Below, piece after piece: positions 4,443 to 33,253 of a stretch of DNA of 64,000 nt. The notes beneath the pieces are model-generated. The model saw nothing but the letters and a program-made list of their open reading frames with translations. It did not search any database and was not told the origin of the DNA. The DNA comes from Psammoneis japonica (lineage: Eukaryota): the NCBI GenBank assembly GCA_008632985.1, contig QPGO01000126.1, positions 124,001 to 188,000 of the forward strand, in the 5' to 3' direction. The number at the start of each line of letters is the position of its first letter. The stretch's first letter is position 1. Position numbers and translations under genes: made by a program.

Positions 4443-4533
4443 TCACGTGCACGTCGCAGATGCATTTTCGAAGTCAACCCATACAAATCTCGTCTCCAGC
4501 ATATCCCCCATTCCCATCTACTAAATAATCACT

Positions 4534-12660: not shown

Positions 12661-12997
12661 TGAGGCAGGTGTCAACCGTGTCATGAATGCGCCACCACGT
12701 CGTGTGTTCTCCACGAATAAATCCGCGAACTGCCCCTCATCAGAGGACAATTCGTCGGAACTCAGATTCCTTTCAATGTACCGCCATCAGTAACATTTCT
12801 ACGAGATGTCGGGAATGAAAGAAGGAGCGCTCTTACCACCGCATGTTTCAGTCGCACAATCCAATCGCGCTTGTGTGATGCATCGTGCGTTCTCATCACA
12901 GAAGATTTTCGCATCTGCTCGCATCTGGCATCTTCTTCAATCTCTCATATCTTGCAGAACCACAAAAAAAGATACCTAAAGATACGCTTTCGAGACA

Positions 12998-13834
12998 ATG
13001 GCCAAGAGACTCGCGACTCAGATTGTGATTGCCGCCTTTCAGGACGAAGAGGCTGTGGATGCCGTTGAAACGGCAGTCGCCAGTGCAGAATGGGACGCCA
13101 AGCAAATCATTTGCACCAACATGGCCAAGGCCAAAAAAGACAAGGCTGGCAAAATGTCCGTCAAGGAATTAGGAAAGCCGAGCGACGTTGGAGCTGCAGC
13201 CACGGGCGGTGGTATCGGTGCGGTCTTGGGTGGATTGGCTCTTTGTTTGCTGGGACCAGCAGGAGCGGCGGCTGGTGCCGCTGCCGGAGGAGCCACCGGA
13301 GCGGCTATCGCTGGCTATGCCAATCATCAAGTGGAGGGTCTTGACAAGGACAAGCTCCAAAAGCTTGGGACGGCTCTCAAACCCGGCACTTCGGCCATTG
13401 TCTTGGTTTTCGATGAAGTTATTGTCTCCAAGAAGGATATTGAAACCGAGTTGGAACTATGGAAGGAAGGTACCGACTTGTTAGTGGATTCCATGACGAC
13501 CAAGATTACCGAACACTTGGAGGCCGGTGACGACATTGCCTATCATTTGGCGTTGGGTGCCGATGGATTTACCGGTTCGCGTTTTGTACTTGGAAAGGAC
13601 GCCATGAATATCCATAACTTGGTCTTGACGCCTGAATTCATTTCGGCGGAAGAATTGACCGCCACGGAGGATGGTGTTGCCTTGGAGGCGGCTGTTGCCA
13701 CGCCGGAACAGCTCACGACGGCTCGTGCCTTGCTCACGTCTTCGGTATGTGCTTATGAAGTCACGGCTATGACAGAGGATGAAGCCGTCTATGAAGCTGG
13801 TGTTGCAGTCGCGGATAAACAGTTGGAAGAATGA
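12998..13834 (+). CDS. DUF1269-like glycine-zipper membrane protein, copy 1
   Basis: IVIAAF..KKDKAGKMSVKE..GGGIGAVLGG..GAAAGAAAGGATGA..G.DKDKLQKLG.ALKPGTSAIVL resembles the bacterial DUF1269 pattern. Intronless. Confidence 0.75.
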   Translation: MAKRLATQIVIAAFQDEEAVDAVETAVASAEWDAKQIICTNMAKAKKDKAGKMSVKELGKPSDVGAAATGGGIGAVLGGLALCLLGPAGAAAGAAAGGATGAAIAGYANHQVEGLDKDKLQKLGTALKPGTSAIVLVFDEVIVSKKDIETELELWKEGTDLLVDSMTTKITEHLEAGDDIAYHLALGADGFTGSRFVLGKDAMNIHNLVLTPEFISAEELTATEDGVALEAAVATPEQLTTARALLTSSVCAYEVTAMTEDEAVYEAGVAVADKQLEE

Positions 13835-14483
13835 GAAGTTGATTGACGAAAGGCACCCCTTTTCTCGTTGTGTAAGTTGTTTAGTAACTTGGTTATTCAG
13901 TTTTATTTTCTATTATAGAGTATGTTATAAAGTATGCTACAGTGCATCGACATATCCTAGCATAATGAGCTAATGCTTAGCTCGAGCTTACAACAGGAAG
14001 AGATGAAGACGATCGCTTTCTGACTACTAGGGCCCTAGTACACGACTTCAAACCACAACACGCTCCAACTGCAGCCGAATTTAGAAGACTTAGCTGTTCG
14101 ACAGCTATCTAGTTGAAAACTACGATGATTTTGTGATGAAAGCTGTCTTTTCCGGCAATTGTTCGATTGGGTTGCCTTCGTTAGGATACGAGGCTTCATT
14201 TCGCAGAGGAAGGAATCGGATGCAAAATCTTGGTCCCCAGAGACACTGTGAACGAGCAATTGCTGCGCACCGCGCAGTAGCTCCGACTGACAGAATAGCA
14301 GGGTTAGGACGCTGCTGCGGTACCAAAACATGTCGCGTTACGTCTTCACAAATGCCATCTTCTTCCCTCGGCTCTTTGTCTTGTCTCTAATCATGACGTC
14401 TCACTCTGGCCAGAGTCTTGTCAGGGACAGGGCTGTCTGCTAAGAACTGAGAGAGAGGCGGGCCCCTGCATGCCCTTTCTGGA

Positions 14484-17400
14484 TTACGACCAGTTGTGTG
14501 CTTTTAAACAGAAGATTGAGGGAGCCCATGTAGAGTGGAAGGGAACAGCAGAGGGAGGCACGGAGGTGGCTGTAGAGACGGTAGAGCAGAAGGGTCGAAG
14601 GACGCAAGACGAAGGGCGTTTTGAGGAAGGCATGGGTGAGGAGGGAGCAGGGAGAGAGGAAGTGAATCGGAGGATGTGCGTAGAAAGGTGAAGAACGACG
14701 TTGCAGGCAAGAGTTTGGGTGGCCCACTGGGATGGGGTGGCCGCACGGTGGGTGTTCCCAAAGCGATCGGCGGACAGGCGACGCCATTCGAAGTCAGCGG
14801 AGGGAAGGATTGCAGACGGAGACGACAAAGCGTAGAGCGAGGAAGGCGGAGCAGGAGGCATCGGAGTGACGAAAGTCAGAGGAAGAGGACCAGGGTGGCT
14901 TGGGCTGAGAGCCGATGGAGGAGGATGTAGAACCAAAGAGCAAGCGGTGAGCAAAGCAGCCGAGACCACCAAGGTGATCTACAGTGAAGGGGAGCAGGAA
15001 GATGCCATCGTTGTCAAGCGAAGAAACAACAAGGGATCCATCGGCAGAGGAAGTGGAGGGGCCAAGAAACTTCAATCTCGCGCTCGAGTGGTGTGCCTCA
15101 GTCAAAACAGGAGAAGAGGGGGCAGGCAGACCTGGAGGAGGGCGAGAGGAAGCTTGAGGGACGGCAACGTCCACTGCAATGCAGTGATGGCGGGAGGGAG
15201 TGGAAAGGGAGGCGGGAGGGGGATTAAAATGCCGACATCAGCGGGACGGAGGAGCGGGCGGGTGGGGAGCAGGTTGGTGGGTTCAAGATGAACGTCATTG
15301 GGGATCGACAGAACTCTGCAAGAGGACCCAAAGTTTGGGCTGGGATGAAAACAGTGCCACCGAGACCATTGGAGAGCTTGGACTTGTGAGCACGGCGGCA
15401 AGAAAAGGCATGATCACCACAGGCATCCAGGATGGCATGGCCACAGGGACAGGGAGTGTTGACAAGGGACGGAGGAAGGATGGGGAGACGAAGCTTGCGA
15501 AGGGCGGCAATGACGCAGGCGTCCGAAGAAAGGCGGGAGCTTGGGAAGCGACGGGAGAAGGAATGAAGAGGGAGGCTTGTAAGCGGAGATGGCAATGAAG
15601 GGAGCGAAGATTGCACGTCGTGACATGAGTTGGCAAGGATGGAGGTTGCTGCTTGCTGCTGATGTTCATGGCAGAGGCGACGAGCCAGGCCAGGAAGAGT
15701 GGCCGATTTAACCAGGGCAGCCAAGGAAGAAGAGGAAAGGGTGGAGGCGGAAGCCAGAGCGGGAGCATGACGGCGGAAGAGCGCACAGAGTCGCAGGGAA
15801 GAGCGAGGGTTGGACCAGGAAGACAGGGAGAGCCGAAAGCAGTGCGGAAGGGAAACAGAAGCGCCAGATGGCAGGCTGACACCGTGCGAAGCAAAGCGGA
15901 ACGAGCGGAGAAGCGACACCAAGAAGGAAGGAATGGCAGCAGCTGTTGGATCTCGGAGACCAAACCCGCCTGAGGAGGCAGGAAGGAAGGCGATGGCAAT
16001 AGAATGATCAGGAAAAGGAGCGGCGAAGGAAGTGACGCAGTGAAGAAAGCGGTGAGTGACGGTGAGGAGGAAATCTTGAAACGGAGAGGTCCAGAGAAAG
16101 GGGTCGGGAGGATTGTCGGGGTCGAAGTTGTGGCAGAAGTCAGCCCCAAGGAGGTGAGCAGAGGATGGAACAAAACAGTGCTTGAAGAGTTGAGCCTGGG
16201 TTTGTTTGTCATGAAGACGGGTGAGAAGCACATCAACTTTGTCGGAGAGAGCAGAGGAAGTGTCGGAAAGGAAGGAGGTGGTGAAGTCGTGGGAGCCAAG
16301 GGGCTGTCCGAGGAAGCAAACACCAGAGGTGAGTTCGGGGTTGTAGGAGGGGTCATTGGCAGGGTTTAAGAAGGAAAGTGCAGCACAGAGAGGATCGGCA
16401 CGGGAAGGGGGAAGAGCAGGGATGGGGCTAACACCGGCAATGGAGGTGAGGATCTTGGTTTTACGGAGGTTGAGGGAGATCCCGCAGGGAGCGCCGAGGG
16501 CGGAGAAGCGTTCAAGGAACCATGGGAGCACGGAATGGGGAAGGAAAGCATGAGCATCATCAACGCAGGAGCCAACTGAGACAGAGGAACGGCCAGGGAT
16601 TCGTTCTTGAAGTTCTTGGTTGATTGGACGAAGAACCAGAGAGAGGACTGGGCTGGCGAAGACAGGGCCGAGAGGGCATCCTTGGGCAAATCCCTCTTCT
16701 TGAAGAAAGGAGCCCCAGGAAGAATCGGGTCGGCGATGCCAACATGCATTGGAACTTTGACATGGAAGGTCAAAAAAAGGAAGCAGAGGATGGAAGGCAG
16801 GGGTGGAGGTGAGAACGTGTCGACAGGCGTCTCGGGATGCTTCGTTGAACACATTGACAAGGTCAAGAAGAAGAAGAACCTTGGTGGAGTCGGCGGAAGA
16901 AAGACATTGTTCAATGTTGGCAAGAGCAGAGTGAATGAGACAATCGAGGCCACCTTTGACACCAATGCCAAATTGGCCATCTGGGAGGAGACATTCGGTG
17001 AATGCAGAACCAAAGAGAGTCATGACGACGGAGCCAGCAATGCGACGGAGAGCAGTGCCGACGCCAATGGGGCGAAGCTTGTTGAGGTCGCTGGCATCTT
17101 CATGCAGAGCGACAAAGCAGTTTGAAGCAAACAAGGAATGGACGGAGGGAGGAATGGAGCCATGGAGAAGGAGAAGGACAAGCTCACGGAAGGATGACAA
17201 GCAGGGACGTTGAGCAACTCCTGTCGGGGTTTTGGCAGAATGAAGGGCGCAGGACTTGAAGAGGTCGGAAGAATCAGCAAAGACGCCGGCAGCAGTCCCA
17301 GGCTTGCATTTGGAGAGAGCAGAAAGAAGAGCGTCGGAGGAGAGCTCAATGGGCTCGTCATGAAGGGAGGAGGCCAAGCGAGTTGAAGGAGGATCAGGCA

Positions 17401-18741
17401 GGTCGGAGGGATGCAGGCGAGGAGGGTAGAGCTTGAGGATGGTGGGAAGGCATTCAGGAGCAACGGCAGCAACAGGAAGCGCAGAGGTGAGCTTGGAGCA
17501 GGCCGAGTGAAAGTCATCTTCGTCGGCGCAGACTTGAGCGGAACAGCAACATGTGGAAGCAGAAAAGTCGGGGGAAGATGAGGAGAGGCGCGGCGCATGG
17601 GAGCAGGCTTCGTGGCAGAGTTGGCGAATGCAGCCACGGCGGAAGAGGGACAAGCGGGAGGCAATGGCTGGGCCAAACTTGGAGCGTGGCGGAACAGGAG
17701 CAAGAATGAGAGCTTCAAAGAGCAAGAGAAGCTTCCAGAAGGGAGTGGAGTCACGTTGCCACGTAGGAATGAGATGGGAAGGGTCAGACAGGGGCTGGGA
17801 GGCGGCCAGCACCCAGCTTGTCACATGGTGAAGAGCGGAGCAGAGTTCCTTGCGGGCAGAGGACGAGAGCTTGCGGCGACAGGAAGCTCGGAAAGGCGGA
17901 GGCTTGAGTGCAAGAGCATGGAGCCATTGTAGCGAGGGACCCCAGTCACCTAGATTGTGGAAGGACGAGAGAACAATGTCAGTGTTGAGGGAAGAGCGAG
18001 GAGCAAAGTGCTTGTTCTGCAAGTGATTGCGGAGGTGGGTGGCAGACAGGCGGGTGTGTTGGCCGCGATTGCAATGCCTGCAGACACGCAAACCAGCGGT
18101 GTCAAAGAAGGACGTAGGTGCATGAGAAAGGGAGAGGCAGGGATGCTCCTGGCAAAGATGGCTGCGCACAGTGGCAGGAAGAGATGATGCATCAATGGAA
18201 GGAGGGGACCAGGAGCAGAAGGGGCAAGTTGGCGGGGCACGGGCTTCGGTGGGCTCCACGAGGCGATGAGGTCGCGGAGGGAGTCGATGTCAGGGGCTGC
18301 AGCCCGGATGGCTTCTTCGTAGAAAGGTTTCCAGGCAGAAAGGCGGGCCGGGCAGCAAGCACCTACGAAGGCATCAAGGACATCCAAGAGCTCCATCTCG
18401 CGCTGGGACTGCTGAGGAGAAACCGAGTCATCAGATTCGGTCTGCACAATTGCATCGGGAGTGGTGGGGGGCGGAGAGGTCTGCACAACTACGGCAGGAA
18501 TGGCAGGGGGTGGAGAGGAAGCATCGGGAGAAGAGTGGGGACGCTTGGAGGGAGGAGGCTCGGTGGTGAGGGAGCGGGCTTGGGGAGGATGGGAGGAAGG
18601 AGATGCAGCAGTGGGGAGCGGATCTTGGGGTTTGGGGAGCTGCCAGTCTTGAGCAAGCAGCTCGAGGGCACGACACGAGAAAGAATCTCGAGAGGGGGCA
18701 GGCGGCTGAAGAGCAGCAGAGGCGTGGGATGGGGAAGCCAT
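14484..18741 (-). mobile_element. Non-LTR retrotransposon of RLE type (CRE-clade-like), copy 1, degenerate
   Basis: N-terminal C2H2 fingers (CPFC..H..H; CRHC..H..H). RT motifs LRPIGVG..RR, QFGIG, LDLVNVFN, GFAQGCPLGP, CVDD (ex-YVDD). C-terminal CPCG..GDHAFSC, RPADV, DVAV. Frameshifted; element ends not resolved. Confidence 0.9.
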
Positions 18742-19020
18742 GCTGTCGCCATGGGTAGATTTACGCAAAGAAGAAGGCGTGCGTGCTGTGTTGTCCGTTT
18801 GGCTGTGCGATGCGATGCTTACCTGCATGCCATGTTGAGCACTTTTCTGCGTCATCTGCTTTCTTGTCTGTGCGTGCCATTTTTGAGTTTCGACTTCCGA
18901 AGACACGCCGACACGCACAACGCACACCACGAGGCACGCAACATGCAACAAACTCACAACGGATGTACGGCACCGACTTCAGATGCCAGTGAGTGTAAGA
19001 ACGAATCGCATGCTGTAACC

Positions 19021-22000
19021 ATGGAATCAACTGATGTTGTCGCTGCTTCCACCAATGAGGAAGTGTCCGTGGCAAGCAGCTGTACGAGCGAGCATCAGAC
19101 GGCGCCAGAGGATCTCGAGCCGAGTCAACAACTAAAGCCCGTTTCAGAGCTCGCAGCCGTTCCAGAAGAAGAAGAAACAACACAAGAAGCGTCTCCGGTT
19201 CAGCTCTGGCATTCGATGCATGCGGAATTGCAAAATGTTTGCAAGTCTCTATCGTGTTCGTTGTGTTTGAGCACCTGTGCAAATCCCGTCATTTTAGACT
19301 CGTGCCTTCACGCATGCTGCCGAGACTGTATTTTGCGTGCGCTGCAGGAAAATAAAAAGTGTCCTTCATGTGGCAACAAAGCCACGAGACGTTCTCTGGT
19401 GGATGCTCCGCATTTCGAGTCACTCGTCAAGGCATGCAAGCACGTATCTCGTGCCATGGGACTGACTCCTGTGGAGTATGACGAGGAATTGGAAGGGTGC
19501 ATGACACAGCTGCCGCCTGAAGAACAAGAAGGAAACAAGGCATCGCTGTTGGATTGTCATGTGCATTTGCAAGTCTCCAAAACGTGGCATGACGTGTTGC
19601 AACGCACATCTCATCATACGACACAAGAAGAGCGCCTGTTACAAGAACGGGCCAAGGTTGTAAAGGCAAACGAGCGTGCTTTGGTCAAAGCTGCAGTGAG
19701 ACAGCAACAAGAAAAGCAGAGCAGCAGAGCTGCAGCAGCTGAATCCAAATCGCCACAAGAGTCACCCAAGTTGGTAACCTTTGCCACCAAGAATGATTCT
19801 TCTCAACGAGATAACGACGAAAACTCGCATACCACCATCAACAACGAAGAGGAAGAGGAGTTTCTGACTGGAAACGAGGAACAACCACCAGACGTACCGC
19901 CGACGAGCCAAGAGCTTCGTGACGCTTCCATGGAACAAGAAGCGACCAATCGTCCCGCCGAAGACATGCTACATGAAGAGCAAGTGCTGCAAGAATCCGC
20001 CACCAGCATGGTGCCGCCCACGAGCCAAGAAATTCGAGACGCCTCCATGGAACAAGAAGCGGCCGATCGCTCCGCGGAAGATATGCTTTATGAAGAGCAG
20101 CAAGAATCATCCACGGCCAACACGCAGGACTTATTTAGTCCCAACACACGCGAAACCATGAGACGTCTTAGCAAGGAAGCCAATGATGTGTTGGAGTCTC
20201 TTCACAAGCCGTCCGAAAGCAGCAATAGTAACGATAATGATGATGACGATGGTATGGTGGCAGAAGTTTTGAATCTCGAAAAGGCAACCGAAGGCTTGCG
20301 TCGTGAATTAGACCGACCCGATCTCAAGAGACAAGCCATGAGTAGTAGTGGCGAGGGATTAATGCACGAGACGGAAGCATCATTGCCGAATGATGAAACC
20401 GACGATGCTTCGTTTGCGAATGATAACGAAAACAACGATTCATCCGAGAGCAGCGACTTTGATCAAACGGCAGGGACGCAAGATATTCGAGATATTCTGG
20501 ATTTGCCTCCGCCCCGCAAGCGCTCGCAACCTCAAGAAGACAAGGAGAACCAAACTCCAACTCAGAACCAAGCTTCGACACCAGCGACTAGAGTGGTTGA
20601 AAAGAGCATTCCTGAAGAAGTACCTCAGCAAAAAGAACCGCAACAAGAAGTAGAACGTGAAGACGAGCCATCGCACTACGCTGTGGGGACGGTGGTGCAG
20701 ATTCAGTCGCGAACGTGGCCGGGTGTCAACAAACCGGGTGGTGTTGCGCGGATATCTAAGGTATCGCTTGAACCATCCATTACCTATGACGTTTCCTACG
20801 TGTTGGGTGGTAAGGAAAAGTCGGTCGATGCAGGATTTGTATCACTCTACAACGACAGCATGAAGCAAGAGCAAAAGGCTAGGCGAGTGACCGTCAAAGA
20901 AGAATCATCATTAGAAATTCCAGCGTCTCTTTTGTTGAAACTTAAGGCTAGTGGATTTGCCACTGACGCCAAGACGGAACGCGCCGTATTGAACAAGGCG
21001 AAAAAGGAAAGGGAATCCAAGACGGACCACACGAAGGCGACGAAAGTATTGAAAAAGGCGGCGAAGAAGGCTCCAACAAAGCCGGGCGACAAGCGTACTA
21101 ATAGTAAAGCCCCAAAACCGAAGCCTAAGCGTCGCAAACGAGACCTTACCGACAACGAAAAAATCGATTTGGCCGATGCTCATTATGCCGAATGGTTTCA
21201 ACAGGCTCAAAGCAATGGCATTGTATACGTGGTGTCTTCGTTTCTATCTGATCGAGACAATGACTTGTTGCAGTTGCTCTGCAAAGAAACTAGAAAATCA
21301 AAAGGTTTGTAGCTGACCGATACGAACCGCTCGCAGCGTCTACCATTCCACTCACTTCCACTTTGTGCTTCTTCTTTTCAGTGGTCGTGAAAGTTTCAAG
21401 CGTGTTTCACCCGTCCAAAACGACACTTTGCGTCATGCCAACTGCGCCGAAAGATCCTACTACCTCTCGGAACCGGTCTCTCAAAGCAATGAGAGCCTCT
21501 CTAGCTGGAGTGCCGATTGTGTCGCCCGATTGGATCTCGACTTGTCTCGAGAAGAAGGAAGTAGTCGAGCCCACCACCTTTATCCGAACCATTACGACTC
21601 GCACGACGCAACTTGTCATCTCACCGAAGCTCCAGCTTGGCATAGCCTTGACCGCTGCAAGAATCCGCGCCCATCAAGCCTTGCCTCTTCACAATGTACA
21701 TGTTTTTTTGTGTGGGTCTTTTGCTTCGCCACGCAAAGTGGATATTCACGTGTTGCTGCGGGAATCTGGGGCACATCTTTTGTCGTCCCTAACGGCAACC
21801 ACGAAAAAGCTTAAGAATCTCTCGAGTGATGATGATGAGCCGGTAGTCCTCTTGTGCGATGATGCAGAGTCGACAAGCTTGTCTGATGCATTGGTAAATG
21901 CTGCAACGAGAGCCATAGACTCTGGCTCTGGAGTTTTGGCGGTAGACGCCGCTTGGCTTTTTGATTCCATTACTTGTGGCATAGTCATGGCCGCAGAGTA

Positions 22001-22055
22001 CTATGAGCCAGCAAATTCGAACGCAAGACAGTTGTGGAAAATGAGTCGAGCATAG
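19021..22055 (+). CDS. RING + Tudor-like + tandem BRCT protein (BRCA1/BARD1-like), copy 1; intron 21305-21381
   Basis: C3HC4 RING (CSLC..C.H..C..C..CP.C), acidic linker with SQ/TQ sites, and BRCT signatures (SLKAMRA..GVPIVSPDWI; AAWLFDSI). The GT..AG intron joins both ORFs in frame. Alternative start 18943. Confidence 0.85.
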
Positions 22056-22828
22056 TTACGAAACTCTGAATCTACCTATAGAAATTTGATTCTGAATGAG
22101 GACACCCGTGCCTCCAGTCGAACCAGTTATTCAAACGAATTCCGATGGACTTCATCGTGTGGAACGGCGACAACCTCCTTTCCGTAGATAGTATCTAGAG
22201 GTTTTCACTCGCATCCGCTTCTTGCTGTTTTCTCTATGGCATAGTAGCTACCGGTAAGGCTTAGAAAGAGAGCTATGTATCAACAATGCTGCTCGCCGTC
22301 CAAAGAAAAAAGTTGGTGTTTGAGTCGTGATTGACACGCTCGCGCCACCTCTCCCTGTTTGCCCAACCCAACTCACTTGTACCCGAAGGATCGTGCCTCA
22401 GCATTCATCCTTCATCCCAGCGGCTTTTTATTATTTTCCCATTGCCGGTTTTTAGAAGCTCCACCGTCTTCCATCTTCGATCCTCCTCATGAAATCAAAC
22501 CTTTTGCAAATAAAACGGAAAGATGCATGGAGGAAACACGATCTTGTCGATCTCTTCTGCATCTCTCGTCCCTTTTGTGGCGCTGCTCGCAGGAATTCCC
22601 AGTTCCCTTTGCATCATTGAACCTCATGACTGAGGATCATGATTCATGTAACCATGACTGAACTTAGCCTTGCTTCAGATGCGTTGATCGATTTCAACAC
22701 GATTGAGATCATCTGATTCTCTCCACTCTCCACGCCATCGGTCACTTTTTTAAACAGAGACGAGATCTGCTTCTCTCACAATCTAGAAACGCTCCTCTGT
22801 TCAAGGAACAGCTGTCTTGCATTGTGAC

Positions 22829-23802
22829 ATGGCCTCTCGTGCTCATTGTCCTCCAGCCTCTGTCTCAAAGGGATCCGAAGCGACCGGCGTTCCCGAGAAG
22901 GAGCCGACTGTGCTGAAGCCGACCATTCTCCTCAACAATGCTGTCAACTGCTCCCACGGTCATCGTACGTCCCAAACAGTCTGGACTGTGTTGAAGACTG
23001 GCTTTGTGCTCGTCAGCCTTTTCTGGGGATGCAATCACTTCGTTTCTAAGAAACCGTCAGTCAAGGATGATTTGACATGCTTCACTTCAGGTCTTCAGCG
23101 CCAAAATAACCTGGCCAGCATTGAGGACCTGCCAACAGACAGTTTTCACAATGTGCTCAGGCATGTTGCGTCAAGTCATTTCATCCAGCAGACGAGGTCC
23201 GGCAGCTTCTTCGAAAGAAGCTCAATCGGTTGCCCGTTGAAGTTCGAGAAAGCATCACAGAAACAGTTGTTGAGGAAGGAGTCACCAACCTAAATTCCTT
23301 TGGTGATTCGACGGCGACGTTTGCGGCCGATGGTCGAGCACACTGTTTCAAAGGCTTTCACTCTACCGTCTGCGACGACACCTTCACGGTCTTCAAATCC
23401 AAAATGTGCGCGACTTGCGTCGTTGCACCCGGAATCACCTTTGATGTTGCTGAAGCAGTGATCGATTACAAACAAGAAACTAGGGAAGAGGTGGTTGGCG
23501 TGAAGCCATGCGAGTGTGGCTGCTTTTGGTGTGCAGAGTGCCCTCTCACAAAAACCAAGACAGTCAAGACGCCCGTGTTCAAGCGCCACAGCCTGACTCT
23601 GAAGCAGCAAGGCCAACTTTCAGAATGGTCAAGGAGGGAAGCAATGATGGAAGCTGAAGATGTCGTTGGAACCGGGAGGACTATCCACATGAGTCCCCCC
23701 AGGGCACGACAACTCGACGACGCGATCAAGGACTTTGCAAAACCAGACTTGGAGGGCAGCTTCTATCATCTGGAAGGGAATGCCTCCATTGCAGACATTT
23801 AA
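22829..23802 (+). pseudogene. Unknown single-TM protein, copy 1 (1-nt deletion ~23150, many Tyr->Cys/His changes)
   Basis: Split into two ORFs relative to the 51286-52260 copy. Confidence 0.65.
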
Positions 23803-24164
23803 TTCTCTAGAGAGAAAGTGTCGAGCATTGTATGTTCTCAGTTTGAAATTAGTTCAACTTGTGCCGGTGTTCGGTTGAGAGACTTGAATCCTTCCTTGTT
23901 GTAACTCTAGTTGCAATTGGAATCGACGTGAACTGCAAATGCTAGCAGGAGACGTCCAACAGTTTTTCCTGGGACCGTCTGCAATGCAACCTGCAATCCT
24001 CCGAAAATGAAGTTCGCCTCGTAAGTTAACCCACAACCCGCGACCGACGTGCCATTGACGGAGCCAAAGGTTTCAGAGATGTTGGTTTCGACACTACAAT
24101 TTCACGTTCATCGTACAAAGGGCGTGGCTCAGCGAAGTCGATCAAAGGGAGCAATGCCTTACAA

Positions 24165-24905
24165 TCATTTCCAAGAATGCAAACTTGCCCCTAAATCAAT
24201 GGTGGCTTCTCCGTCCGGTGCAAAAGCCAAATCCCCATTGTGGATGTTTTTCCACACGGAGGAATCCCCCATTGATCTCAAGAGTGCTTCAGATGGAATG
24301 ACGTTGCTGACACAAAACAGAATTCCTCCTGGTGCCGTCACTCGCGTCAATTCCGTTATAGAATCTTGAAACACATCCTTCCCAGTAATGTGTGTTGCAT
24401 CCAAGGTGCCCTTGTCGAAAATGGCATCAATCGATTGATTCGGAATCATGCGCAAGTTTCTAGCATCGGCCGTCACCAAAGAGACATCAGCATTTCGCAG
24501 TCGATCGGGTCCAAACAGTTCCTTGGCACGATCAATTCCAGCTTGAGAATGATCAAAGGCTGTCATGGTTTGGTTCCAGCCAGCATCACACAATTCGATG
24601 GGAGTCGGATCATTTCCCATGCCTGCCACCAAGACATGAGCTTGGCAATTGGGAACCAGTTCCCTCCAAAAGGGAGCAATTTCATTCCAACCGCAATGCC
24701 AAGAATGCGAACTCGAAGGACGATCTCCGACTCCCTCATGCATTTCATCCCAATGGCTCTTCATCCCAAATTTACATTTCCCCGTTGTTTCATCCATGTT
24801 GGCATTCTTCGACGGCAACACTGCACAAGAAGAGTGCGACGATTGATGCAGTCGACCTTGCATGGCAAAGGCCACTGCAACAAGAGCTTTGGGAACGAAG
24901 ACCAT
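24165..24905 (-). pseudogene. Class I SAM methyltransferase, copy 1, hypermutated
   Basis: All Tyr of copy 3 are changed to His/Cys; CGA->TGA near the end. Confidence 0.75.
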
Positions 24906-25129
24906 GCTTCTTCTTTTAGATTTCGGTTCTGTTCAGATGGAAGAATTAACAGTCTTAAAGAGGAGCAAAGAGTTCTCGCTTCTCGCCCTCCATTCCCTCC
25001 AACCTCAATCACAATCAATCAGTCGCAATCATCTACGATTTTGGGATTTTAGGTTTTGCTCACCGATTTATTTACGGACGATGGACAGCCCTGTGCTAAC
25101 CGACAGATATAAAATGCGCATGCATGCAT

Positions 25130-26773
25130 GTCTCTCGCTCTGAGATCCCTCAATTTTCATGTCACTGGTGCCGTGCTCATTGCCACTGTCCTTGCATCTT
25201 GTTGGATTGATCAGACACAGCAGTCTGACAGGTTGTGGCCTTCATTAGATTGTTCTGCTGTGTCAAGAACAACTGATTCGTTTTTTTTTTTGGCAGACGA
25301 GACGATGCCCTTGCTTCTTGTGTCCCTCTCGGGTGCAGAAAGCAGCTGCAGGCACGTCAGCAGAGGGTCATCAGCACTGCAGAAGACATGCTGGAGCCTG
25401 TGGGTGTTTTTTTCTGCACCTCCAGCATGACCAAAGATGAGAAAAATGGCAATCTTCTCAAGATTGTCAAGACCACTTTGCTGTCAATTTCAGCCCCCTT
25501 CACATCACCCTTGTTTTGCTCTCCAAACGATGCTGGCACACTGCTGCTGTGTCCTCAACCACAGCTTTGCACCAACAATTGCCTTCCCCTGGGCAACATT
25601 CTGGATGGCTTCACTCCTTGTGGTCTGTGCAGCAATTCCACGCCAATCATTTGTCAGAAGATTCTCCAGGACTTGATCGTTCTTCAAGCAGCGGCTCTGC
25701 GCACTCTTTGAAAAGAAGGCACACCTCTGCCAGGTGCTGTCAGCAACCCAAATGGACCTCAGAAACATCTGAACTTCTTCTCCTCTTTGCAGAAGACTGC
25801 GCTCCAAGCAACATGATTTGACAATGATGGCGCTGTTGAGATTCACACTGGGGCAGTGTTGCTCTTTTTCTGACACCCGGCATTGCATCACACAGGTGCT
25901 CGCCACATGCTCTCCAACGGCTGTCCTCCAGATGATCAACCCTCTGACTGCAACCTCTTCAGGTGCTCCTGCCCCTCACTTGACATGGGAGTCATTTTTA
26001 AATGTCGCAACACACGCACCTCCCACTCATTCTTGACAACATCAACAGCTTGGCATGAGAGACCACACCAGCAGATTGCACACTGCAAGCAACCACACTG
26101 CAGCTCACCTTTGCCTCTCTGCAAGACAACAACCAATCAGCAAACCATGGCCCATGGCACCCACACATGCCCAGCTTTGGGAGGCCCTGCCTGAAAAAAG
26201 CGCACATCATCACCCAGCATGTTGTGCCAGCTCCCTGGGTGTGCTGCTGTCTGCTGCTGCTGGTCAGCAGCACATTGCTGAAGCAGCCGCAGCAGCACGC
26301 TGCTGATGTTTTGTTTGTTGCCTGGGTCATGAGAGCATTGCTGATGAGAGTTCCTTGGCAGTGTCTTTTGGGATTGTTTTTTCTGTGACAGAACCCTCTT
26401 TATGTTGAAAAGAGCCAGGGGTGTGCGAGTCATGCAAGCAATGTGTCACAGCTGCTGCAGCAATGGAGTGGCTTGAGCTCAATGTCCTGCTCATCTGGTT
26501 GTGGCCATCATGCAGGCATCAGATGAGTGGGCAATGACAACACTCTTCTTTTTTCACATGCGCCGCTTTTTGAAACATGAGTTTTTTCCTTGGTGGGGCA
26601 CAGCCTTGGTGCATGCTGCTGTTTGTTTTGGTGCAAAAATTGCCACAAAATGATTTCAAACCTGGACAGAGATCCCTTTTCCTGTTGGCCTGAGCTTGCA
26701 TTCCAACCCTGGGTGGGGCTGTGCACGACATTGGGCCCACAGAGTTCTGTGCACAAGCTCTGCAGCAAAGTCA
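25130..26773. mobile_element. Decayed TpA/CpG-depleted tract, copy 1 (truncated by the junction)
   Basis: About 3 TA in 1.6 kb and few CG. No recognisable domain. Confidence 0.45.
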
Positions 26774-27228
26774 TCAGGGAGGCACAGCACGGGCATCTTT
26801 ATCGTGCATTTGTGAAAATGAATGAATCGCGATGGCTGCATTTGAAATGATGTGTGGCGCCCTGTCTCTGCTAGAGCAGAATTCAAAGTGTTGAGGCAGG
26901 TGTCAACCGTGTCATGAATGCGCCACCACGTCGTGTGTTCTCCACGAATAAATCCGCGAACTGCCCCTCATCAGAGGACAATTCGTCGGAACTCAGATTC
27001 CTTTCAATGTACCGCCATCAGTAACATTTCTACGAGATGTCGGGAATGAAAGAAGGAGCGCTCTTACCACCGCATGTTTCAGTCGCACAATCCAATCGCG
27101 CTTGTGTGATGCATCGTGCGTTCTCATCACAGAAGATTTTCGCATCTGCTCGCATCTGGCATCTTCTTCAATCTCTCATATCTTGCAGAACACAAAAAAA
27201 AGATACCTAAAGATACGCTTTCGAGACA

Positions 27229-28065
27229 ATGGCCAAGAGACTCGCGACTCAGATTGTGATTGCCGCCTTTCAGGACGAAGAGGCTGTGGATGCCGTTGAA
27301 ACGGCAGTCGCCAGTGCAGAATGGGACGCCAAGCAAATCATTTGCACCAACATGGCCAAGGCCAAAAAAGACAAGGCTGGCAAAATGTCCGTCAAGGAAT
27401 TAGGAAAGCCGAGCGACGTTGGAGCTGCAGCCACGGGCGGTGGTATCGGTGCGGTCTTGGGTGGATTGGCTCTTTGTTTGCTGGGACCAGCAGGAGCGGC
27501 GGCTGGTGCCGCTGCCGGAGGAGCCACCGGAGCGGCTATCGCTGGCTATGCCAATCATCAAGTGGAGGGTCTTGACAAGGACAAGCTCCAAAAGCTTGGG
27601 ACGGCTCTCAAACCCGGCACTTCGGCCATTGTCTTGGTTTTCGATGAAGTTATTGTCTCCAAGAAGGATATTGAAACCGAGTTGGAACTATGGAAGGAAG
27701 GTACCGACTTGTTAGTGGATTCCATGACGACCAAGATTACCGAACACTTGGAGGCCGGTGACGACATTGCCTATCATTTGGCGTTGGGTGCCGATGGATT
27801 TACCGGTTCGCGTTTTGTACTTGGAAAGGACGCCATGAATATCCATAACTTGGTCTTGACGCCTGAATTCATTTCGGCGGAAGAATTGACCGCCACGGAG
27901 GATGGTGTTGCCTTGGAGGCGGCTGTTGCCACGCCGGAACAGCTCACGACGGCTCGTGCCTTGCTCACGTCTTCGGTATGTGCTTATGAAGTCACGGCTA
28001 TGACAGAGGATGAAGCCGTCTATGAAGCTGGTGTTGCAGTCGCGGATAAACAGTTGGAAGAATGA
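27229..28065 (+). CDS. DUF1269-like protein, copy 2
   Basis: Protein identical to copy 1. Confidence 0.75.
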   Translation: MAKRLATQIVIAAFQDEEAVDAVETAVASAEWDAKQIICTNMAKAKKDKAGKMSVKELGKPSDVGAAATGGGIGAVLGGLALCLLGPAGAAAGAAAGGATGAAIAGYANHQVEGLDKDKLQKLGTALKPGTSAIVLVFDEVIVSKKDIETELELWKEGTDLLVDSMTTKITEHLEAGDDIAYHLALGADGFTGSRFVLGKDAMNIHNLVLTPEFISAEELTATEDGVALEAAVATPEQLTTARALLTSSVCAYEVTAMTEDEAVYEAGVAVADKQLEE

Positions 28066-28715
28066 GAAGTTGATTGACGAAAGGCACCCCTTTTCTCGTT
28101 GTGTAAGTTGTTTAGTAACTTGGTTATTCAGTTTTATTTTCTATTATAGAGTATGTTATAAAGTATGCTACAGTGCATCGACATATCCTAGCATAATGAG
28201 CTAATGCTTAGCTCGAGCTTACAACAGGAAGAGATGAAGACGATCGCTTTCTGACTACTAGGGCCCTAGTACACGACTTCAAACCACAACACGCTCCAAC
28301 TGCAGCCGAATTTAGAAGACTTAGCTGTTCGATAGCTATCTAGTTGAAAACTACGATGATTTTGTGATGAAAGCTGTCTTTTCCGGCAATTGTTCGATTG
28401 GGTTGCCTTCGTTAGGATACGAGGCTTTATTTCGCAGAGGAAGGAATCGGGTGCAAAATCTTGGTCCCTGGAGATGCTGTGAACGAGCAATTGCTGCGCA
28501 CCGCGTAGTAGCTCCGACTGACAGAATAGCAGGGTTAGGACGCTGCTACGGTACCAAAACATGTCGCGTTACGTCTTCACAAATGCTGTCTTCTTCCCTC
28601 GGCTCTTTGTCTTGTCTCTAATCATGACATCTTGCTCTGGCTAGAGTCTTGCCAGTGGATGGGGCTGTCTGCTGAGAACCAAGAGAGAGGCGGGCCCCTA
28701 CGTGCCCTTTCTGGA

Positions 28716-32974: not shown

Positions 32975-33253
32975 GCTGTCGCCATGGGTAGATTTACGCA
33001 AAGAAGAAGGCGTGCGTGCTGTATTGTCCGTTTGGCTGTGCGATGCGATGCTTACCTGTATGCCGTGTTGAGCACTTTTCTGCGTCATCTGCTTTCTTGT
33101 CTGTGCGCGCCATTTTTGAGTTTCGACTTCCGAAGACACGCCGACACGCACAACGCACACCACGAGGCACGCAACATGCAACAAACTCACAACGGATGTA
33201 CGGTACCGACTTCAGATGCCAGTGAGTGTAAGAACGAATCGCATACTGTAACC

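What the first reader, a model, noticed from the sequence alone, without database searches (positions are those of the whole stretch)
18780..22440. Mutation spreads ~1 kb from the retrotransposon into the BRCA1-like gene, then stops
Seen: between 18780 and ~19720, copy 1 has about 15 TA->TG/CA and 2 CpG changes versus copies 2 and 3 (STYTNP->STCANP, HAYC->HACC, KAYK->KACK). From ~19720 to ~22430 I see essentially none, although TA sites are plentiful. Changes resume at ~22440 toward the decayed element. The triplicated DUF1269 gene is also untouched. Inference: the trigger is proximity to an element (a spreading chromatin or methylation domain), not duplication itself, which differs from RIP.
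Basis: partly seen in the sequence, partly recalled or inferred. Interest (0 to 1): 0.8.

Follow-up and report, generated by a model that had tools for sequence, protein, structure and literature searches.

The report
TpA hypermutation blocks flanking a retrotransposon
In one copy of a triplicated 14-kb segment of a diatom-like genome, about half of all TA dinucleotides inside sharply bounded blocks next to silent, transposon-like DNA have become TG or CA. This is the reverse of fungal RIP, and in the papers I could search it is reported only from one other alga.

Summary
The window holds a 14.23-kb tandem triplication (c1, c2, c3). Between 18790 and 19722, c1 differs from c2=c3 at 17 places: 15 at TA and 2 at CpG. 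That is 15 of 30 TA sites, against 0 of 92 in 19723-22442 (p 2.5e-11). Changes resume at 22444, and the DUF1269 gene is untouched.

Homologues of three genes (RING/BRCT protein, gene X, methyltransferase) carry Tyr or Ile where the TA-bearing copy does and where the changed copies have Cys, His or Arg. RIP (C->T) is therefore excluded.

The change prefers T-A-Y. The LINE itself has almost no TA left (observed/expected 0.1) and almost no Tyr. A DNA-like run and an RNA-like run carry both variant types, so it is not a base-calling artefact.

The same signature was reported in 2026 for integrated viruses of Bigelowiella natans, so this is a new member of a known kind, in a stramenopile.

The blocks do abut TA-exhausted silent DNA, and duplication alone does not trigger them. 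But the "decayed element" at 22440 is two host genes, sister copies with the same neighbours are unhit, and the edges are abrupt rather than graded.

The parts
12543..26773 (.). Copy 1 (c1) of the 14.23-kb tandem unit. It equals copy A of the inferred original duplication and is the heavily hit copy.
   Evidence: Self-BLAST and three-way alignment.
26774..41008 (.). Copy 2 (c2), a recombinant. It is identical to c3 at c1-private sites up to 23781 (c1 coordinates) and groups with c1 from 23820 on. It contains an N run at 35631-36075.
   Evidence: Nine non-TA sites in 25279-26726 also group c1 with c2.
41009..55238 (.). Copy 3 (c3), equal to copy B. It keeps the ancestral TA state in the RING gene, gene X and the methyltransferase gene.
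12980..13834 (+). DUF1269-family gene (also at 27211-28065 and 41445-42298). Unhit in all copies. Depth is very high in the RNA-like run X2.
   Evidence: Pfam PF06897, 33.3 bits. 0 of 56 TA sites changed in 12543-14101. X2 depth 4400-5400.
14102..14750 (.). Left block. It spans about 440 bp of flank plus the 3' end of the LINE, and is hit in c1 and also in c2=c3. At several dinucleotides c1 reads CA or TG where c2=c3 read the other, on the opposite strand.
   Evidence: c1 8 of 26 and c2=c3 2 of 26 TA sites changed. Eight further sites here read CA in one lineage and TG in the other.
14538..18750 (-). Non-LTR retrotransposon (LINE), with an RT ORF at 15224-18289. It is high-copy, has no cover in X2, and is TA-exhausted in all three copies. 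Its ends are approximate, taken from read depth.
   Evidence: RVT_1 28 bits, just under the 29.6 cutoff. 30 homologues at E <= 1e-34. TA o/e 0.10. Tyr 2 of 1021 residues, and Cys or His at 4 of 4 consensus-Tyr columns. X1 depth 465-4000 against about 115 for the unit.
18790..19722 (.). The block in the finding. In c1, 15 of 30 TA sites are changed to TG/CA, plus 2 CpG changes. It covers the promoter/5' region and the first ~780 nt of the RING-BRCT coding sequence, including the RING finger.
18943..22055 (+). RING + BRCT gene (BRCA1/BARD1-like architecture). Exon 1 runs to 21302, a 77-nt GT..AG intron spans 21303-21379, and exon 2 runs 21380-22055, in frame. The start codon is inferred.
   Evidence: Pfam zf-C3HC4 and BRCT. 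X2 contig skipping 21303-21379. ATG list.
19723..22443 (.). Unhit core. 0 of 92 TA sites and 0 of 181 CpG sites are changed. It holds one c1-private transversion, at 21840.
22444..25235 (.). Second c1 block: 59 of 102 TA sites are changed in c1. It covers gene X (22787-23802, split by an indel in c1) and the methyltransferase gene.
   Evidence: 21 of 36 and 38 of 66.
38032..39471 (.). The c2 block, equivalent to c1 23798-25235. 42 of 66 TA sites are changed: 29 in the same way as c1, and 9 differently from c1 at the same TA.
51244..52260 (+). Gene X, a 338-aa ORF intact in c3. It matches no Pfam family and has one homologue (39% identity).
52619..53392 (-). SAM-dependent methyltransferase gene. 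The c3 copy keeps 8 conserved Tyr, 1 conserved Ile and the Arg codon where c1 and c2 have TGA.
25236..26773 (.). Unit end 'J' (also at 39472-41008 and 53696-55233). It is poor in both TA and CpG and rich in CA+TG, has no Pfam match, has no cover in X2, and is not high-copy. Similar zones lie at 11000-12700 and 55239-55900.
   Evidence: 3 TA sites in 1.5 kb.

Best explanation
This is a real, DNA-level hypermutation that converts A:T to G:C specifically at 5'-TA-3' (TA->TG or CA), with a strong preference for T-A-pyrimidine. It is the same signature as the TpA hypermutation reported in 2026 for integrated viral DNA of the alga Bigelowiella natans, seen here in a diatom-like stramenopile.

History (inferred):
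- The process had already removed almost every TA from a silent, high-copy LINE and from two other silent zones before the segment was duplicated.
- After a recent microhomology-mediated tandem duplication (copies A and B), it acted in copy A in blocks that start at these TA-exhausted zones. The blocks run 0.4-2.8 kb into the neighbouring host genes and end abruptly.
- Copy B stayed clean except beside the 3' end of the LINE.
- An unequal crossover near 23800 then made the third copy (c2 = left part of B + right part of A), and hits went on in c1 and c2.

Mechanism (inferred, not shown): enzymatic deamination of adenine in T-A-Y context in DNA, confined to a copy-specific silent (probably cytosine-methylated) chromatin domain seeded by the element. 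The damage persists because the hit genes are redundant.

Consequence (follows from the genetic code): this change never creates a stop codon and destroys TAA and TAG. Hit genes therefore stay open but lose Tyr (to Cys/His) and Ile.
For: Direction:
- Methyltransferase: at 9 codons where the copies differ, 40-53 of 53 homologues have Tyr (8 codons) or Ile (1 codon). That is the c3 (TA) state, while c1 and c2 have His/Cys/Arg/Ser/Thr/Met. c3 also keeps Arg (47 of 53 homologues) where c1 and c2 have TGA.
- RING gene, 51 homologues: codon 400 is Tyr 26/Phe 25/Cys 0; codon 440 is Tyr 41/Phe 6; codon 387 is Tyr 20/Leu 17/Cys 1. c2 and c3 have Tyr and c1 has Cys. Codons 374 and 388 also favour c2/c3.
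- Gene X, one homologue: c2/c3 match it exactly at 5 positions and are aromatic like it at 2 more, out of 7 differing positions in the well-aligned part. c1 matches at none.

Specificity:
- 169 of 175 substitution columns are transitions, and 105 of 175 lie in TA-bearing dinucleotides, against a TA share of 2.3%.
- T-A-Y half-sites are hit 78 of 173 times, T-A-R 22 of 142 (odds ratio 4.5, p 1.5e-8; TAC 0.48, TAT 0.41, TAA 0.17, TAG 0.14).

Blocks:
- 15 of 30 against 0 of 92 TA sites (p 2.5e-11).
- c1 38 of 66 against c3 0 of 66 (p 3e-15).
- The hit rate is flat and then zero. The chance of 0 of 23 half-sites at the in-block rate is 4e-4.

Earlier exhaustion of the LINE:
- TA o/e is 0.10, against 0.43-0.83 in 76 of 80 related LINE loci from metagenomes.
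- Tyr is 0.2% of residues, against 2.0-3.5% in the 8 homologues tabulated. Cys or His stands at 4 of 4 consensus-Tyr columns, while Phe is kept at 15 of 15 and Trp at 3 of 3.
- Surviving TA sites with T-A-Y on both strands number 4 of 115 in the TA-poor elements, against 5098 of 17410 in the other 76 loci (p 3e-12).

Not an artefact:
- A DNA-like run's contig over 18708-22524 carries the c2/c3 state at 15 of the 19 places where c1 differs, and the c1 state at 4.
- A spliced, RNA-like contig carries the c1 state over 19042-21302 with 0 differences. This includes T->C sites, which editing of the sense RNA cannot give.

Precedent: mutation-accumulation lines of B. natans gained 230 A->G/T->C changes out of 231 single-nucleotide mutations in two integrated viral regions, all of the A->G/T->C changes at TpA. 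Low-TpA coding sequences there are enriched in reverse-transcriptase domains (bioRxiv 10.64898/2026.01.13.699255; abstract, Results and Discussion read).
Against: - No whole genome is held, so the link to elements rests on four blocks in one locus.
- Identical flanks in the sister copies are not hit, so an element next door is not enough.
- The second block abuts a zone that matches no transposon family and is not high-copy.
- The hit c1 RING gene is transcribed and spliced, which sits badly with a simply silenced domain.
- One RING codon (452: c1 Val, c2/c3 Met; homologues Val 21, Ile 10, Met 0) points the other way, and codon 417 is ambiguous.
- About 24 CpG<->TpG/CpA differences and 24 other columns do not fit a pure TpA rule.
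- The DNA-like run's contigs seem to lack most c1-private 31-mers: its share is 0.78, against 0.755 for words shared with c2/c3. The c1 state of the RING block is therefore backed only by the assembly and the RNA-like contig. Both runs come from one sample, which may be the assembly's own source.
- The enzyme, the chromatin state and the timing are all inferred.
Confidence: 0.6

Rival explanations
1. Whole-copy hypermutation followed by gene conversion. Copy A was hit along most of its length, and the clean cores (12700-14101, 19723-22443) were later overwritten from copy B. On this reading the sharp edges are conversion-tract ends, not limits of the mutator.
For: The edges are abrupt. Tandem repeats do convert, and c2 is itself a recombinant. 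CpG changes and other transitions are also absent from the cores: 0 of 267 CpG sites.
Against: The core keeps one c1-private transversion (21840), seen as C in the RNA-like contig and as A in the DNA-like contig. Of the unit's few non-transition differences (6 transversion columns, plus 21840, which lies opposite the N run), one therefore lies in the core, about what uniform age predicts (n = 1, weak). Two separate conversions would be needed, and both would have to restore expressed host-gene parts.
Confidence: 0.15
2. Bursts plus selection, without copy-specific chromatin. Short, dense bursts strike DNA around elements in any copy. In single-copy genes they are purged. After duplication one hit copy is tolerated, and the other is then protected by purifying selection.
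For: Only redundant copies of the RING gene, gene X and the methyltransferase are hit. c3 keeps every conserved Tyr and the Arg codon. The blocks are flat with sharp ends. In B. natans the process is active in only 11 of 15 lines.
Against: Selection cannot shield neutral TA sites one by one, so this needs each block to arise in very few events. Yet c1 and c2 went on diverging at 9 shared TA sites plus private ones after the third copy formed, which suggests repeated action on the same block.
Confidence: 0.2
3. Error-prone repair synthesis of the polymerase-eta type. That enzyme miscopies T at WA motifs and gives A->G, as in phase 2 of antibody hypermutation (recalled knowledge). Here it would be recruited to repair patches in silent chromatin, and no deaminase would be involved.
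For: A->G at TA is the main polymerase-eta hotspot (recalled). Three differences have the form AAT/AGT: 22602, 26468, 26527. Patch-like blocks of about 1-3 kb.
Against: AA sites are barely used, whereas WA would predict many. The 3' pyrimidine preference resembles the U-A-C context of the A34 site that the tRNA adenosine deaminase TadA edits (recalled). Removal of nearly all TA from the LINE is hard to reach with a polymerase error rate.
Confidence: 0.08
4. RIP-like C->T change at CpA in the common ancestor of c2 and c3. On this reading c1 is ancestral and the majority rule misleads.
For: CpA->TpA is the classical RIP change. The differences are symmetric, so parsimony among the three copies cannot polarise them.
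Against: Outgroup proteins have Tyr or Ile where the TA copies do, in three genes. C->T would have had to create conserved residues at more than 15 codons by chance. The TA-poor LINE lacks Tyr, whereas RIP would enrich TA.
Confidence: 0.01
5. Assembly artefact: systematic long-read base-calling errors at a modified base, or collapsed polishing that made the cores identical.
For: The copies differ by single-base homopolymer indels that a short-read-like contig does not show: gaps 0 over 18708-22524. The assembly is therefore imperfectly polished. The DNA-like run's contigs hold few c1-private words.
Against: Both variant types occur in contigs of two other runs, and c1 and c3 differ at 21840 inside the core in those runs too. 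The differences follow one recombination history and track protein conservation. The same depletion is seen in unrelated metagenome contigs.
Confidence: 0.03
6. ADAR-type A-to-I editing of double-stranded RNA, followed by reverse transcription and conversion of the genomic copy.
For: ADARs prefer a 5' U, and retroelements are known to be hyper-edited in animals (recalled, and cited in the discussion of the preprint).
Against: A 3' G, favoured by ADARs (recalled), is the least hit context here: TAG 0.14. Changes on both strands occur in one molecule. The blocks include promoter and intergenic DNA, and the copy keeps its intron.
Confidence: 0.02

Closest known systems
TpA hypermutation of integrated viral DNA in Bigelowiella natans (Mettrop et al., bioRxiv 10.64898/2026.01.13.699255, 2026; abstract, Results and Discussion read)
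   Same: Almost only A->G/T->C, at TpA, giving TpG/CpA. It is confined to discrete regions with normal DNA alongside. The long-term trace is low TpA with high CpA+TpG, and reverse-transcriptase genes are among the depleted sequences. It does not need a second copy and is not always active.
   Different: Here the host is a diatom-like stramenopile, not a rhizarian. The exhausted target is a high-copy LINE. The visible hits are collateral, in host genes 0.4-2.8 kb beyond the exhausted DNA, and only in redundant copies. A 3' pyrimidine preference (T-A-Y), sharp block ends and co-localised CpG changes are seen here. The words trinucleotide, context, flank and diatom do not occur in the preprint's main text; its supplements were not available. 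No mutation rate can be measured here.
Repeat-induced point mutation (RIP) of Neurospora and other fungi
   Same: Dense, dinucleotide-specific transitions that ruin repeated or selfish DNA and can leak into neighbouring sequence. Both leave a skewed TpA : CpA+TpG balance.
   Different: The direction is opposite (A:T->G:C rather than G:C->A:T), so TpA is lost rather than gained. No stop codons are made. Duplicated DNA is not hit along its length, and single-copy zones are depleted too. The organism is not a fungus.
Deaminase-based restriction in animals (APOBEC3 on retroelement cDNA; ADAR hyper-editing of repeat RNA) and AID-driven somatic hypermutation
   Same: Clustered, context-specific transitions aimed at selfish or selected sequences. 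For AID, the hypermutated domain is about 1-2 kb with defined limits near a promoter (recalled).
   Different: APOBEC and AID change C, not A. ADAR acts on RNA and favours a 3' G. Here the change is in genomic DNA, on both strands, at T-A-Y.
tRNA adenosine deaminases TadA / ADAT2-ADAT3 (the candidate enzyme class named in the preprint)
   Same: The natural A34 target sits after the conserved U33. For bacterial TadA it also sits before C35, that is U-A-C (recalled). This matches the T-A-Y preference found here.
   Different: Their known natural substrate is tRNA. No gene of this class could be examined because no genome is held for this window.

Membership tests
B. natans-type TpA hypermutation | Changes are almost only A:T->G:C transitions | tested here: met
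   169 of 175 substitution columns are transitions. Outgroups polarise the TA-type ones as TA->TG/CA in three genes.
B. natans-type TpA hypermutation | Changes fall on TpA dinucleotides only | tested here: inconclusive
   105 of 175 columns lie in TA-bearing dinucleotides, and 22 more in CA-versus-TG pairs best explained by a TA ancestor. However, 24 columns are single CpG<->TpG/CpA differences and 24 are other columns. TpA dominates but is not exclusive.
B. natans-type TpA hypermutation | Confined to discrete regions next to normally mutating DNA | tested here: met
   15 of 30 against 0 of 92 TA sites, and 38 of 66 against 0 of 66.
B. natans-type TpA hypermutation | Targets foreign or selfish DNA and leaves low TpA with high CpA+TpG | tested here: met
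   The LINE has TA o/e 0.10 and CA+TG o/e 1.36, against 0.43-0.83 for TA in 76 of 80 related loci. Tyr is lost at 4 of 4 consensus columns. The blocks seen between the copies lie in host genes beside it.
B. natans-type TpA hypermutation | Elevated de novo rate in mutation-accumulation lines; active in only some lines | not testable with these tools
   No lines and no raw reads. Only contigs of three runs of one sample could be laid.
RIP (fungal repeat-induced point mutation) | G:C->A:T transitions, mostly CpA->TpA | tested here: not met
   The direction is the reverse. Hit DNA loses TpA.
RIP (fungal repeat-induced point mutation) | Acts along the length of duplicated sequence because it is duplicated | tested here: not met
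   Two triplicated cores are untouched, 0 of 56 and 0 of 92 TA sites. Non-duplicated zones at 11000-12542 and 55239-55900 are TA-poor too.
RIP (fungal repeat-induced point mutation) | Premeiotic, dependent on RID/DIM-2 cytosine methyltransferases, in fungi | not testable with these tools
   No genome is held. The named homologues are diatoms.
ADAR-type RNA hyper-editing fixed through cDNA | A->G on one RNA strand, with 3' G favoured | tested here: not met
   TAG is hit at 0.14 against TAC at 0.48. Both A->G and T->C occur in one contig, and the intron and promoter are included.
BRCA1/BARD1-like protein (the label used in the finding) | N-terminal C3HC4 RING plus C-terminal BRCT | tested here: met
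   zf-C3HC4 scores 27.3 bits (cutoff 21) and BRCT 26.3 bits (cutoff 21.3). The two ORFs are joined in frame by a 77-nt intron. Orthology to BRCA1 or BARD1 was not tested.

The most novel reading that the evidence does not exclude
Stramenopiles and rhizarians share a guided DNA adenine-deaminase defence, a mirror image of RIP. An editor derived from the tRNA deaminases (hence T-A-Y) is directed, through small RNAs or silent chromatin, to selfish DNA. It works in kilobase blocks with defined borders, erases TA until the element is dead while leaving its frames open, and spills into neighbouring host genes whenever redundancy allows. This would make it a source of fast, directional divergence of young gene duplicates in major marine algae.
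Probability: 0.3. Interest if true: 0.9.

Novelty: new member of a known kind. Interest (0 to 1): 0.72.

Why it matters
TpA-specific A:T->G:C hypermutation has, in the papers I could search, a single report: a 2026 preprint on one chlorarachniophyte.

This locus shows the same signature in a diatom-like genome. The process may therefore be widespread among ecologically dominant algae.

The locus also supplies what the preprint's main text does not:
- An internal control, namely three near-identical copies of which only some blocks are hit.
- Polarity proven by protein outgroups.
- A trinucleotide preference that narrows the choice of enzyme.
- Block borders a few tens of bases wide.
- Proof that host genes, here a RING/BRCT repair-type gene and a methyltransferase, can be collateral targets.

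This makes two questions directly testable: what aims the mutator, and which enzyme it is. It also carries a warning for annotation. Hypermutated elements keep long open frames because TAA and TAG are erased, so an open frame there is no sign of an active element.

Tried and rejected
- Whole-genome search: none is held, so no genome-wide distance plot and no search for deaminase genes.
- Earlier notes of this scan: nothing for this genome, these words or the LINE sequence.
- Sequencing runs: no listed holder is on record as RNA. X3 laid nothing.
- Pfam on ORFs of the TA-poor zones (25505-25975, 25998-26399, 11148-11708, 11872-12459, 12104-12736), on gene X and on 17950-18978: no family.
- Similarity between the upstream zone 10000-12542 and the unit end 24900-26773, as a test for unequal crossover between repeats: none. 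The junction instead shows a 5-bp microhomology.
- Strand bias relative to transcription: counts for A on the + strand against the - strand at T-A-Y are 9/23 vs 4/20 (RING block), 6/12 vs 3/9 (gene X), 12/19 vs 4/18 (methyltransferase, c1) and 11/19 vs 9/18 (c2). There is no consistent link to the coding strand, so I dropped it.
- I considered that the TG-in-c1/CA-in-c2 pairs are the two sister chromatids of one doubly deaminated duplex. I rejected it because the orientations are mixed, 4 one way and 3 the other.
- A CpG ancestor for the CA-versus-TG pairs in 14238-14750 was rejected on my own rough estimate, not a tool result. Too few single CpG changes occur there for that many double hits (site lists).
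- GC-biased gene conversion was rejected: there is no G/C donor, and the changes are TA-specific.
- Protein Atlas on the opine-dehydrogenase ORF showed only that the nearest eukaryotic cluster is mostly oomycete.
- The SPLASH paper (PMC9258296; passages read) mentions diatoms and hypermutation in unrelated contexts.

Full report
ANATOMY

The window contains a tandem triplication of a 14.23-kb unit: c1 12543-26773, c2 26774-41008, c3 41009-55238. Pairwise identity is 98.5-99.4% (self-BLAST; repeat families). c2 carries a 445-base N run at 35631-36075.

Each unit holds, from left to right:
- A DUF1269-family gene (12980-13834, +).
- A non-LTR retrotransposon on the minus strand, with a 1021-codon RT frame (15224-18289).
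- A RING + BRCT gene (+).
- A 338-codon gene of unknown family, "gene X". It is intact only in c3 (51244-52260); in c1 an indel splits it.
- A SAM-dependent methyltransferase gene (24165-24932, -).
- A 1.5-kb end zone, "J", with no recognisable gene.

The flanks of the array are ordinary host genes: FAD oxidoreductase, opine dehydrogenase, F-box/LRR, PAS and LRR. The unit junction shows a 5-bp microhomology (TCAGG) and no flanking repeat.

No whole genome is held for the window. Named homologues of the methyltransferase are diatoms: Synedropsis sp. CCMP1620, Cylindrotheca and Skeletonema, at 38-58% identity. The best, unnamed, hit is only 63% identical. The source is therefore a diatom or a close relative whose proteins are not in the collections.

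THE OBSERVATION

A three-way alignment gives 175 substitution columns.
- 169 of the 175 are transitions.
- 105 lie in a dinucleotide that reads TA in at least one copy and TG, CA or CG in the others.
- 46 lie in 35 sites that read only CG, TG or CA. Eleven of those sites are CA in one lineage and TG in the other.
- 24 are other columns.
- TA makes up only 2.3% of dinucleotides.

In the finding's stretch c1 differs from c2=c3 at 17 positions between 18790 and 19722. Fifteen are TA-type and two are CpG-type, exactly as reported.

By TA sites:

| Stretch (c1 coordinates) | TA sites | Hit in c1 | Hit in c2 | Hit in c3 |
|---|---|---|---|---|
| 12543-14101 (DUF1269) | 56 | 0 | 0 | 0 |
| 18789-19722 | 30 | 15 | 0 | 0 |
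| 19723-22442 | 92 | 0 | 0 | 0 |
| 22443-23797 | 36 | 21 | 0 | 3 |
| 23798-25235 | 66 | 38 | 42 | 0 |

The contrast 15/30 against 0/92 has p = 2.5e-11, and 38/66 against 0/66 has p = 3e-15.

DIRECTION

Three copies cannot polarise a symmetric series CG <-> TG/CA <-> TA. My first suspicion was ordinary RIP-like C->T change in the ancestor of c2 and c3. Outgroup proteins say otherwise.

- Methyltransferase. At nine codons where the copies differ, 40 to 53 of 53 homologues have Tyr (eight codons) or Ile (one). That is the state of c3, while c1 and c2 have His, Cys, Arg, Ser, Thr or Met. c3 also has Arg (47 of 53 homologues) where c1 and c2 have a TGA stop.
- RING gene. Among the 51 homologues with E <= 1e-10, codon 400 is Tyr 26/Phe 25/Cys 0, codon 440 is Tyr 41/Phe 6, and codon 387 is Tyr 20/Leu 17/Cys 1. 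c2 and c3 have Tyr and c1 has Cys. Codons 374 and 388 agree. Codon 452 (c1 Val; homologues Val 21, Ile 10, Met 0) disagrees, and codon 417 is uninformative.
- Gene X. It has a single homologue. At the seven differing positions of the well-aligned part, c2/c3 equal it five times and share an aromatic residue twice. c1 never matches.

SPECIFICITY

Each TA counts as two half-sites, one A per strand, and events shared by two copies are counted once. On that basis T-A-Y is hit at 78 of 173 half-sites and T-A-R at 22 of 142 (odds ratio 4.5, p 1.5e-8). By trinucleotide the rates are TAC 0.48, TAT 0.41, TAA 0.17 and TAG 0.14.

It follows from the genetic code that TA->TG/CA cannot turn any sense codon into a stop, and that it removes TAA and TAG. 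Hit genes stay open but lose Tyr and Ile.

THE ELEMENT ITSELF

The LINE has a TA observed/expected ratio of 0.06-0.10 in all three copies, with CA+TG at 1.2-1.4.
- Its RT frame has 2 Tyr in 1021 residues (0.2%), against 2.0-3.5% in the 8 homologues tabulated, and 4.5% Cys against 1.3-2.2%.
- At the four columns where at least 60% of 30 homologues have Tyr it has Cys, Cys, His and Cys. Consensus Phe (15 of 15), Trp (3 of 3), His (3 of 3) and Cys (6 of 6) are kept.
- The many long frames in this region are thus a by-product of stop-codon loss, not a sign of an active element.
- The depletion is not a family trait. Of 80 related LINE loci fetched from metagenomes, 76 have TA o/e of 0.43-0.83.
- Four loci are depleted like this one. 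L017 has TA o/e 0.06 and no Tyr in a 706-codon frame. L026, L035 and L048 have 0.22-0.29 and Tyr at 0.4-0.8%. In L026 and L035 TA returns to about 1.0-1.3 in the last 500 bases.
- In the depleted elements the surviving TA sites avoid the doubly favourable context R-T-A-Y: 4 of 115, against 5098 of 17410 in the other 76 loci (p 3e-12). This independently supports the T-A-Y rule and suggests the same process acts in other organisms.

Zone J, the zone upstream of the array (11000-12700) and the zone downstream of it (55239-55900) are poor in both TA (o/e 0.03-0.21) and CpG (0.19-0.41). Their CA+TG o/e is 1.5-1.9.

INDEPENDENT READ SETS

Two coded runs from one sample hold the stretch, and only their contigs could be laid.

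X1 behaves as DNA.
- Depth is about 115 over the unit and 465-4000 over 14443-18717, so the LINE is a high-copy family.
- Its 3817-base contig over 18708-22524 differs from c1 at 15 places. All 15 are among the 19 places where c1 differs from c3 in that span. It agrees with c1 at 18790, 18971, 19367 and 22444.
- It has no gaps, so the homopolymer indels that break the c2 and c3 frames in the assembly are probably assembly errors.

X2 behaves as RNA.
- One contig skips a 77-base GT..AG stretch (21303-21379), which joins the RING and BRCT frames in phase.
- Depth ranges from 0 over the LINE and J to 4400-5400 over DUF1269.
- The spliced contig is identical to c1 over 19042-21302, including sites where c1 has C for T. 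Editing of a sense transcript cannot produce those.
- X2 contigs over 22746-25024 differ from c1 by 25 and 35 letters.

Both variant types therefore exist outside the assembly. The changes are in DNA, and the hit c1 RING gene is transcribed and spliced.

Caveats:
- 24.5% of the 31-mers of c1 18700-25300 are private to c1. X1's word share (0.78) is close to the shared fraction (0.755), so X1's contigs mostly follow the majority path.
- The runs may come from the sample that was assembled.

HISTORY (INFERRED)

c2 equals c3 at every c1-private site up to 23781 and groups with c1 from 23820 on. Nine non-TA sites in 25279-26726 also group c1 with c2. One unequal crossover in an A-B duplication gives exactly A - (B-left/A-right) - B.

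Hits continued afterwards. In 23798-25235, c1 and c2 carry different products at the same TA at nine sites (TG/CA 4, CA/TG 3, TG/CG 2), and c2 has five private hits.

Apart from the TA and CpG sets, the 24 remaining substitution columns are mostly transitions and include only 6 transversion columns. The array is therefore young, and the blocks reflect a process far faster than background.

WHERE THE BLOCKS LIE

All blocks start at TA-exhausted DNA that has no cover in the RNA-like run.
- The left block (14102-14750) runs from the 3' end of the LINE (about 14538 by read depth) some 440 bp outward. It stops about 270 bp short of the DUF1269 stop codon, and it is hit in both lineages.
- The block in the finding runs about 0.9-1 kb from the 5' end of the LINE (about 18700-18750) into the RING gene.
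- The third block runs 2.8 kb leftward from J through the methyltransferase gene and gene X. It stops about 390 bp after the RING/BRCT stop codon.

Inside a block the hit rate is flat. At T-A-Y half-sites it is 3/12, 3/10, 5/17 and 2/6 per 250 bp, and then zero (0/7, 0/7, 0/9). The last hit is at 19722 and the next unhit T-A-Y is at 19775. The chance of 0 of 23 at the in-block rate is 4e-4.

CpG changes private to c1 are confined to the same blocks: 10 of 234 against 0 of 267 in the cores (p 4e-4). One is polarised as CpG->TpG by the conserved Arg codon.

Duplication is not the trigger: the cores are clean, and unduplicated zones are depleted too. The blocks do adjoin element-like DNA, and the co-localised CpG decay fits a methylated domain. 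Four points go against a simple reading.
- The stretch from 22440 is host genes, not a decayed element.
- J matches no transposon family and is not high-copy.
- The same neighbours leave c2/c3 (RING) and c3 (gene X, methyltransferase) untouched. In its native setting next to J, the methyltransferase gene had kept a normal TA content (o/e 0.66 for 52001-53000).
- There is no distance decay.

Something copy-specific must be added. One option is a silent chromatin state that covers one duplicate. The other is dense bursts that survive only where a redundant copy exists. A later gene conversion that cleaned the cores cannot be excluded. It is not required, because the core keeps a c1-private transversion (21840) that both runs confirm.

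WHAT IS KNOWN

Six full-text searches found one description of this signature: Mettrop et al., bioRxiv 10.64898/2026.01.13.699255. I read its abstract, Results and Discussion. Its supplements were not available.
- In mutation-accumulation lines of Bigelowiella natans, two integrated viral regions mutate about 1000-fold faster than the rest of the genome.
- 230 of the 231 single-nucleotide mutations in those regions are A->G/T->C, and all of these are at TpA.
- This happens in only 11 of 15 lines, and the larger region is single-copy.
- Low-TpA coding sequences are enriched in reverse-transcriptase and endonuclease-RT domains.
- The authors propose an ADAT2-like adenine deaminase.
- The main text does not contain the words trinucleotide, context, flank or diatom.

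The present locus is thus a new member of that kind in another major lineage. It adds polarity by outgroups, the T-A-Y preference, sharp block borders, co-localised CpG change, and collateral hits in redundant host genes.

The T-A-Y preference resembles the U-A-C setting of the adenosine edited by the tRNA deaminase TadA (recalled knowledge). It speaks against ADAR-like enzymes, which favour a 3' G (recalled). This is a lead, not a test.

VERDICT

- Observation: confirmed.
- Interpretation: partly supported.
- Confidence that this is a real TpA-directed A:T->G:C hypermutation in DNA: about 0.9.
- Confidence that element-seeded, copy-specific domains aim it: about 0.45.
- Confidence that an adenine deaminase does it: about 0.4.

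Noticed in passing
window 35631-36075: A run of 445 N in copy 2, aligned without length change to c1 21397-21840 and c3 49854-50297. The sequence there is unknown, so 11 TA sites could not be scored in c2.
   Followed up: no
window 18731, 18760, 18798, 20630 (c3 equivalents); 21378, 21958, 21970, 22201, 22243, 22256 (c2 equivalents): Single-base homopolymer indels between the copies break the RING/BRCT frames of c2 and c3 in the assembly. A 3817-base contig of run X1 with the c2/c3 substitutions has no gaps against c1. These are probably assembly errors, and the c2/c3 genes are probably intact.
   Followed up: partly
window 21303-21379: A 77-nt GT..AG intron joins the 1061-codon RING frame to the BRCT frame in phase, as shown by a contig of run X2. 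The listing guesses X2 to be DNA, but it behaves as a transcriptome.
   Followed up: yes
window 12543-12547 and 55234-55238: The tandem unit begins with TCAGG, and the same five bases end the array. This is a 5-bp microhomology at the duplication breakpoint. No similar repeats flank the unit.
   Followed up: yes
window 23781-23820 (c1 coordinates; c2 38015-38054): Switch point of c2 from c3-like to c1-like, taken as the unequal crossover that made the third copy. c2 has three private changes exactly here (23798-23800).
   Followed up: partly
window 16738-16829 (c3 45202-45293): Five columns within 92 bp of the LINE set c3 apart from c1=c2, against the c2=c3 pattern around them. At RT codon 518 c3 keeps Tyr, the consensus of 21 of 30 homologues, while c1 and c2 have His. 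This may be a small conversion patch, from c1 to c2 or from another LINE copy into c3.
   Followed up: no
window 11000-12700, 25236-26773 (and its copies), 55239-55900: Zones poor in both TA (o/e 0.03-0.21) and CpG (0.19-0.41), with CA+TG o/e of 1.5-1.9. They have many spurious long frames, no Pfam match, no cover in run X2, and ordinary depth in X1. Their origin is unknown; they may be very old hypermutated and methylated insertions.
   Followed up: partly
L017 1-3500; L026 1-3500; L035 1-2500; L048: Metagenome contigs with related LINEs that are TA-exhausted (o/e 0.06-0.29), with Tyr at 0.0-0.8% in their long frames. In L026 and L035, TA returns to about 1.0-1.3 in the last 500 bases. The same process seems to act in other organisms.
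   Followed up: partly
window 9646-10968 (F-box/LRR gene, minus strand): TA o/e falls from 0.71 (9001-10000) to 0.31 (10001-11000) in the part of this single-copy gene nearest the TA-poor upstream zone. This may be spill-over into an unduplicated gene. It could not be polarised.
   Followed up: no
window 3012-3907: Internal direct repeats (3237-3559 against 3582-3907 at 86.5%; 3012-3142 against 3093-3223 at 88.6%) inside the 840-codon frame 1740-4262, which matches no Pfam family.
   Followed up: no
window 18708-22524: The X1 contig reads like c1 at 4 of the 19 c1-specific sites (18790, 18971, 19367, 22444). This hints at further copies or an allele with an intermediate set of hits that is not in this assembly.
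   Followed up: no
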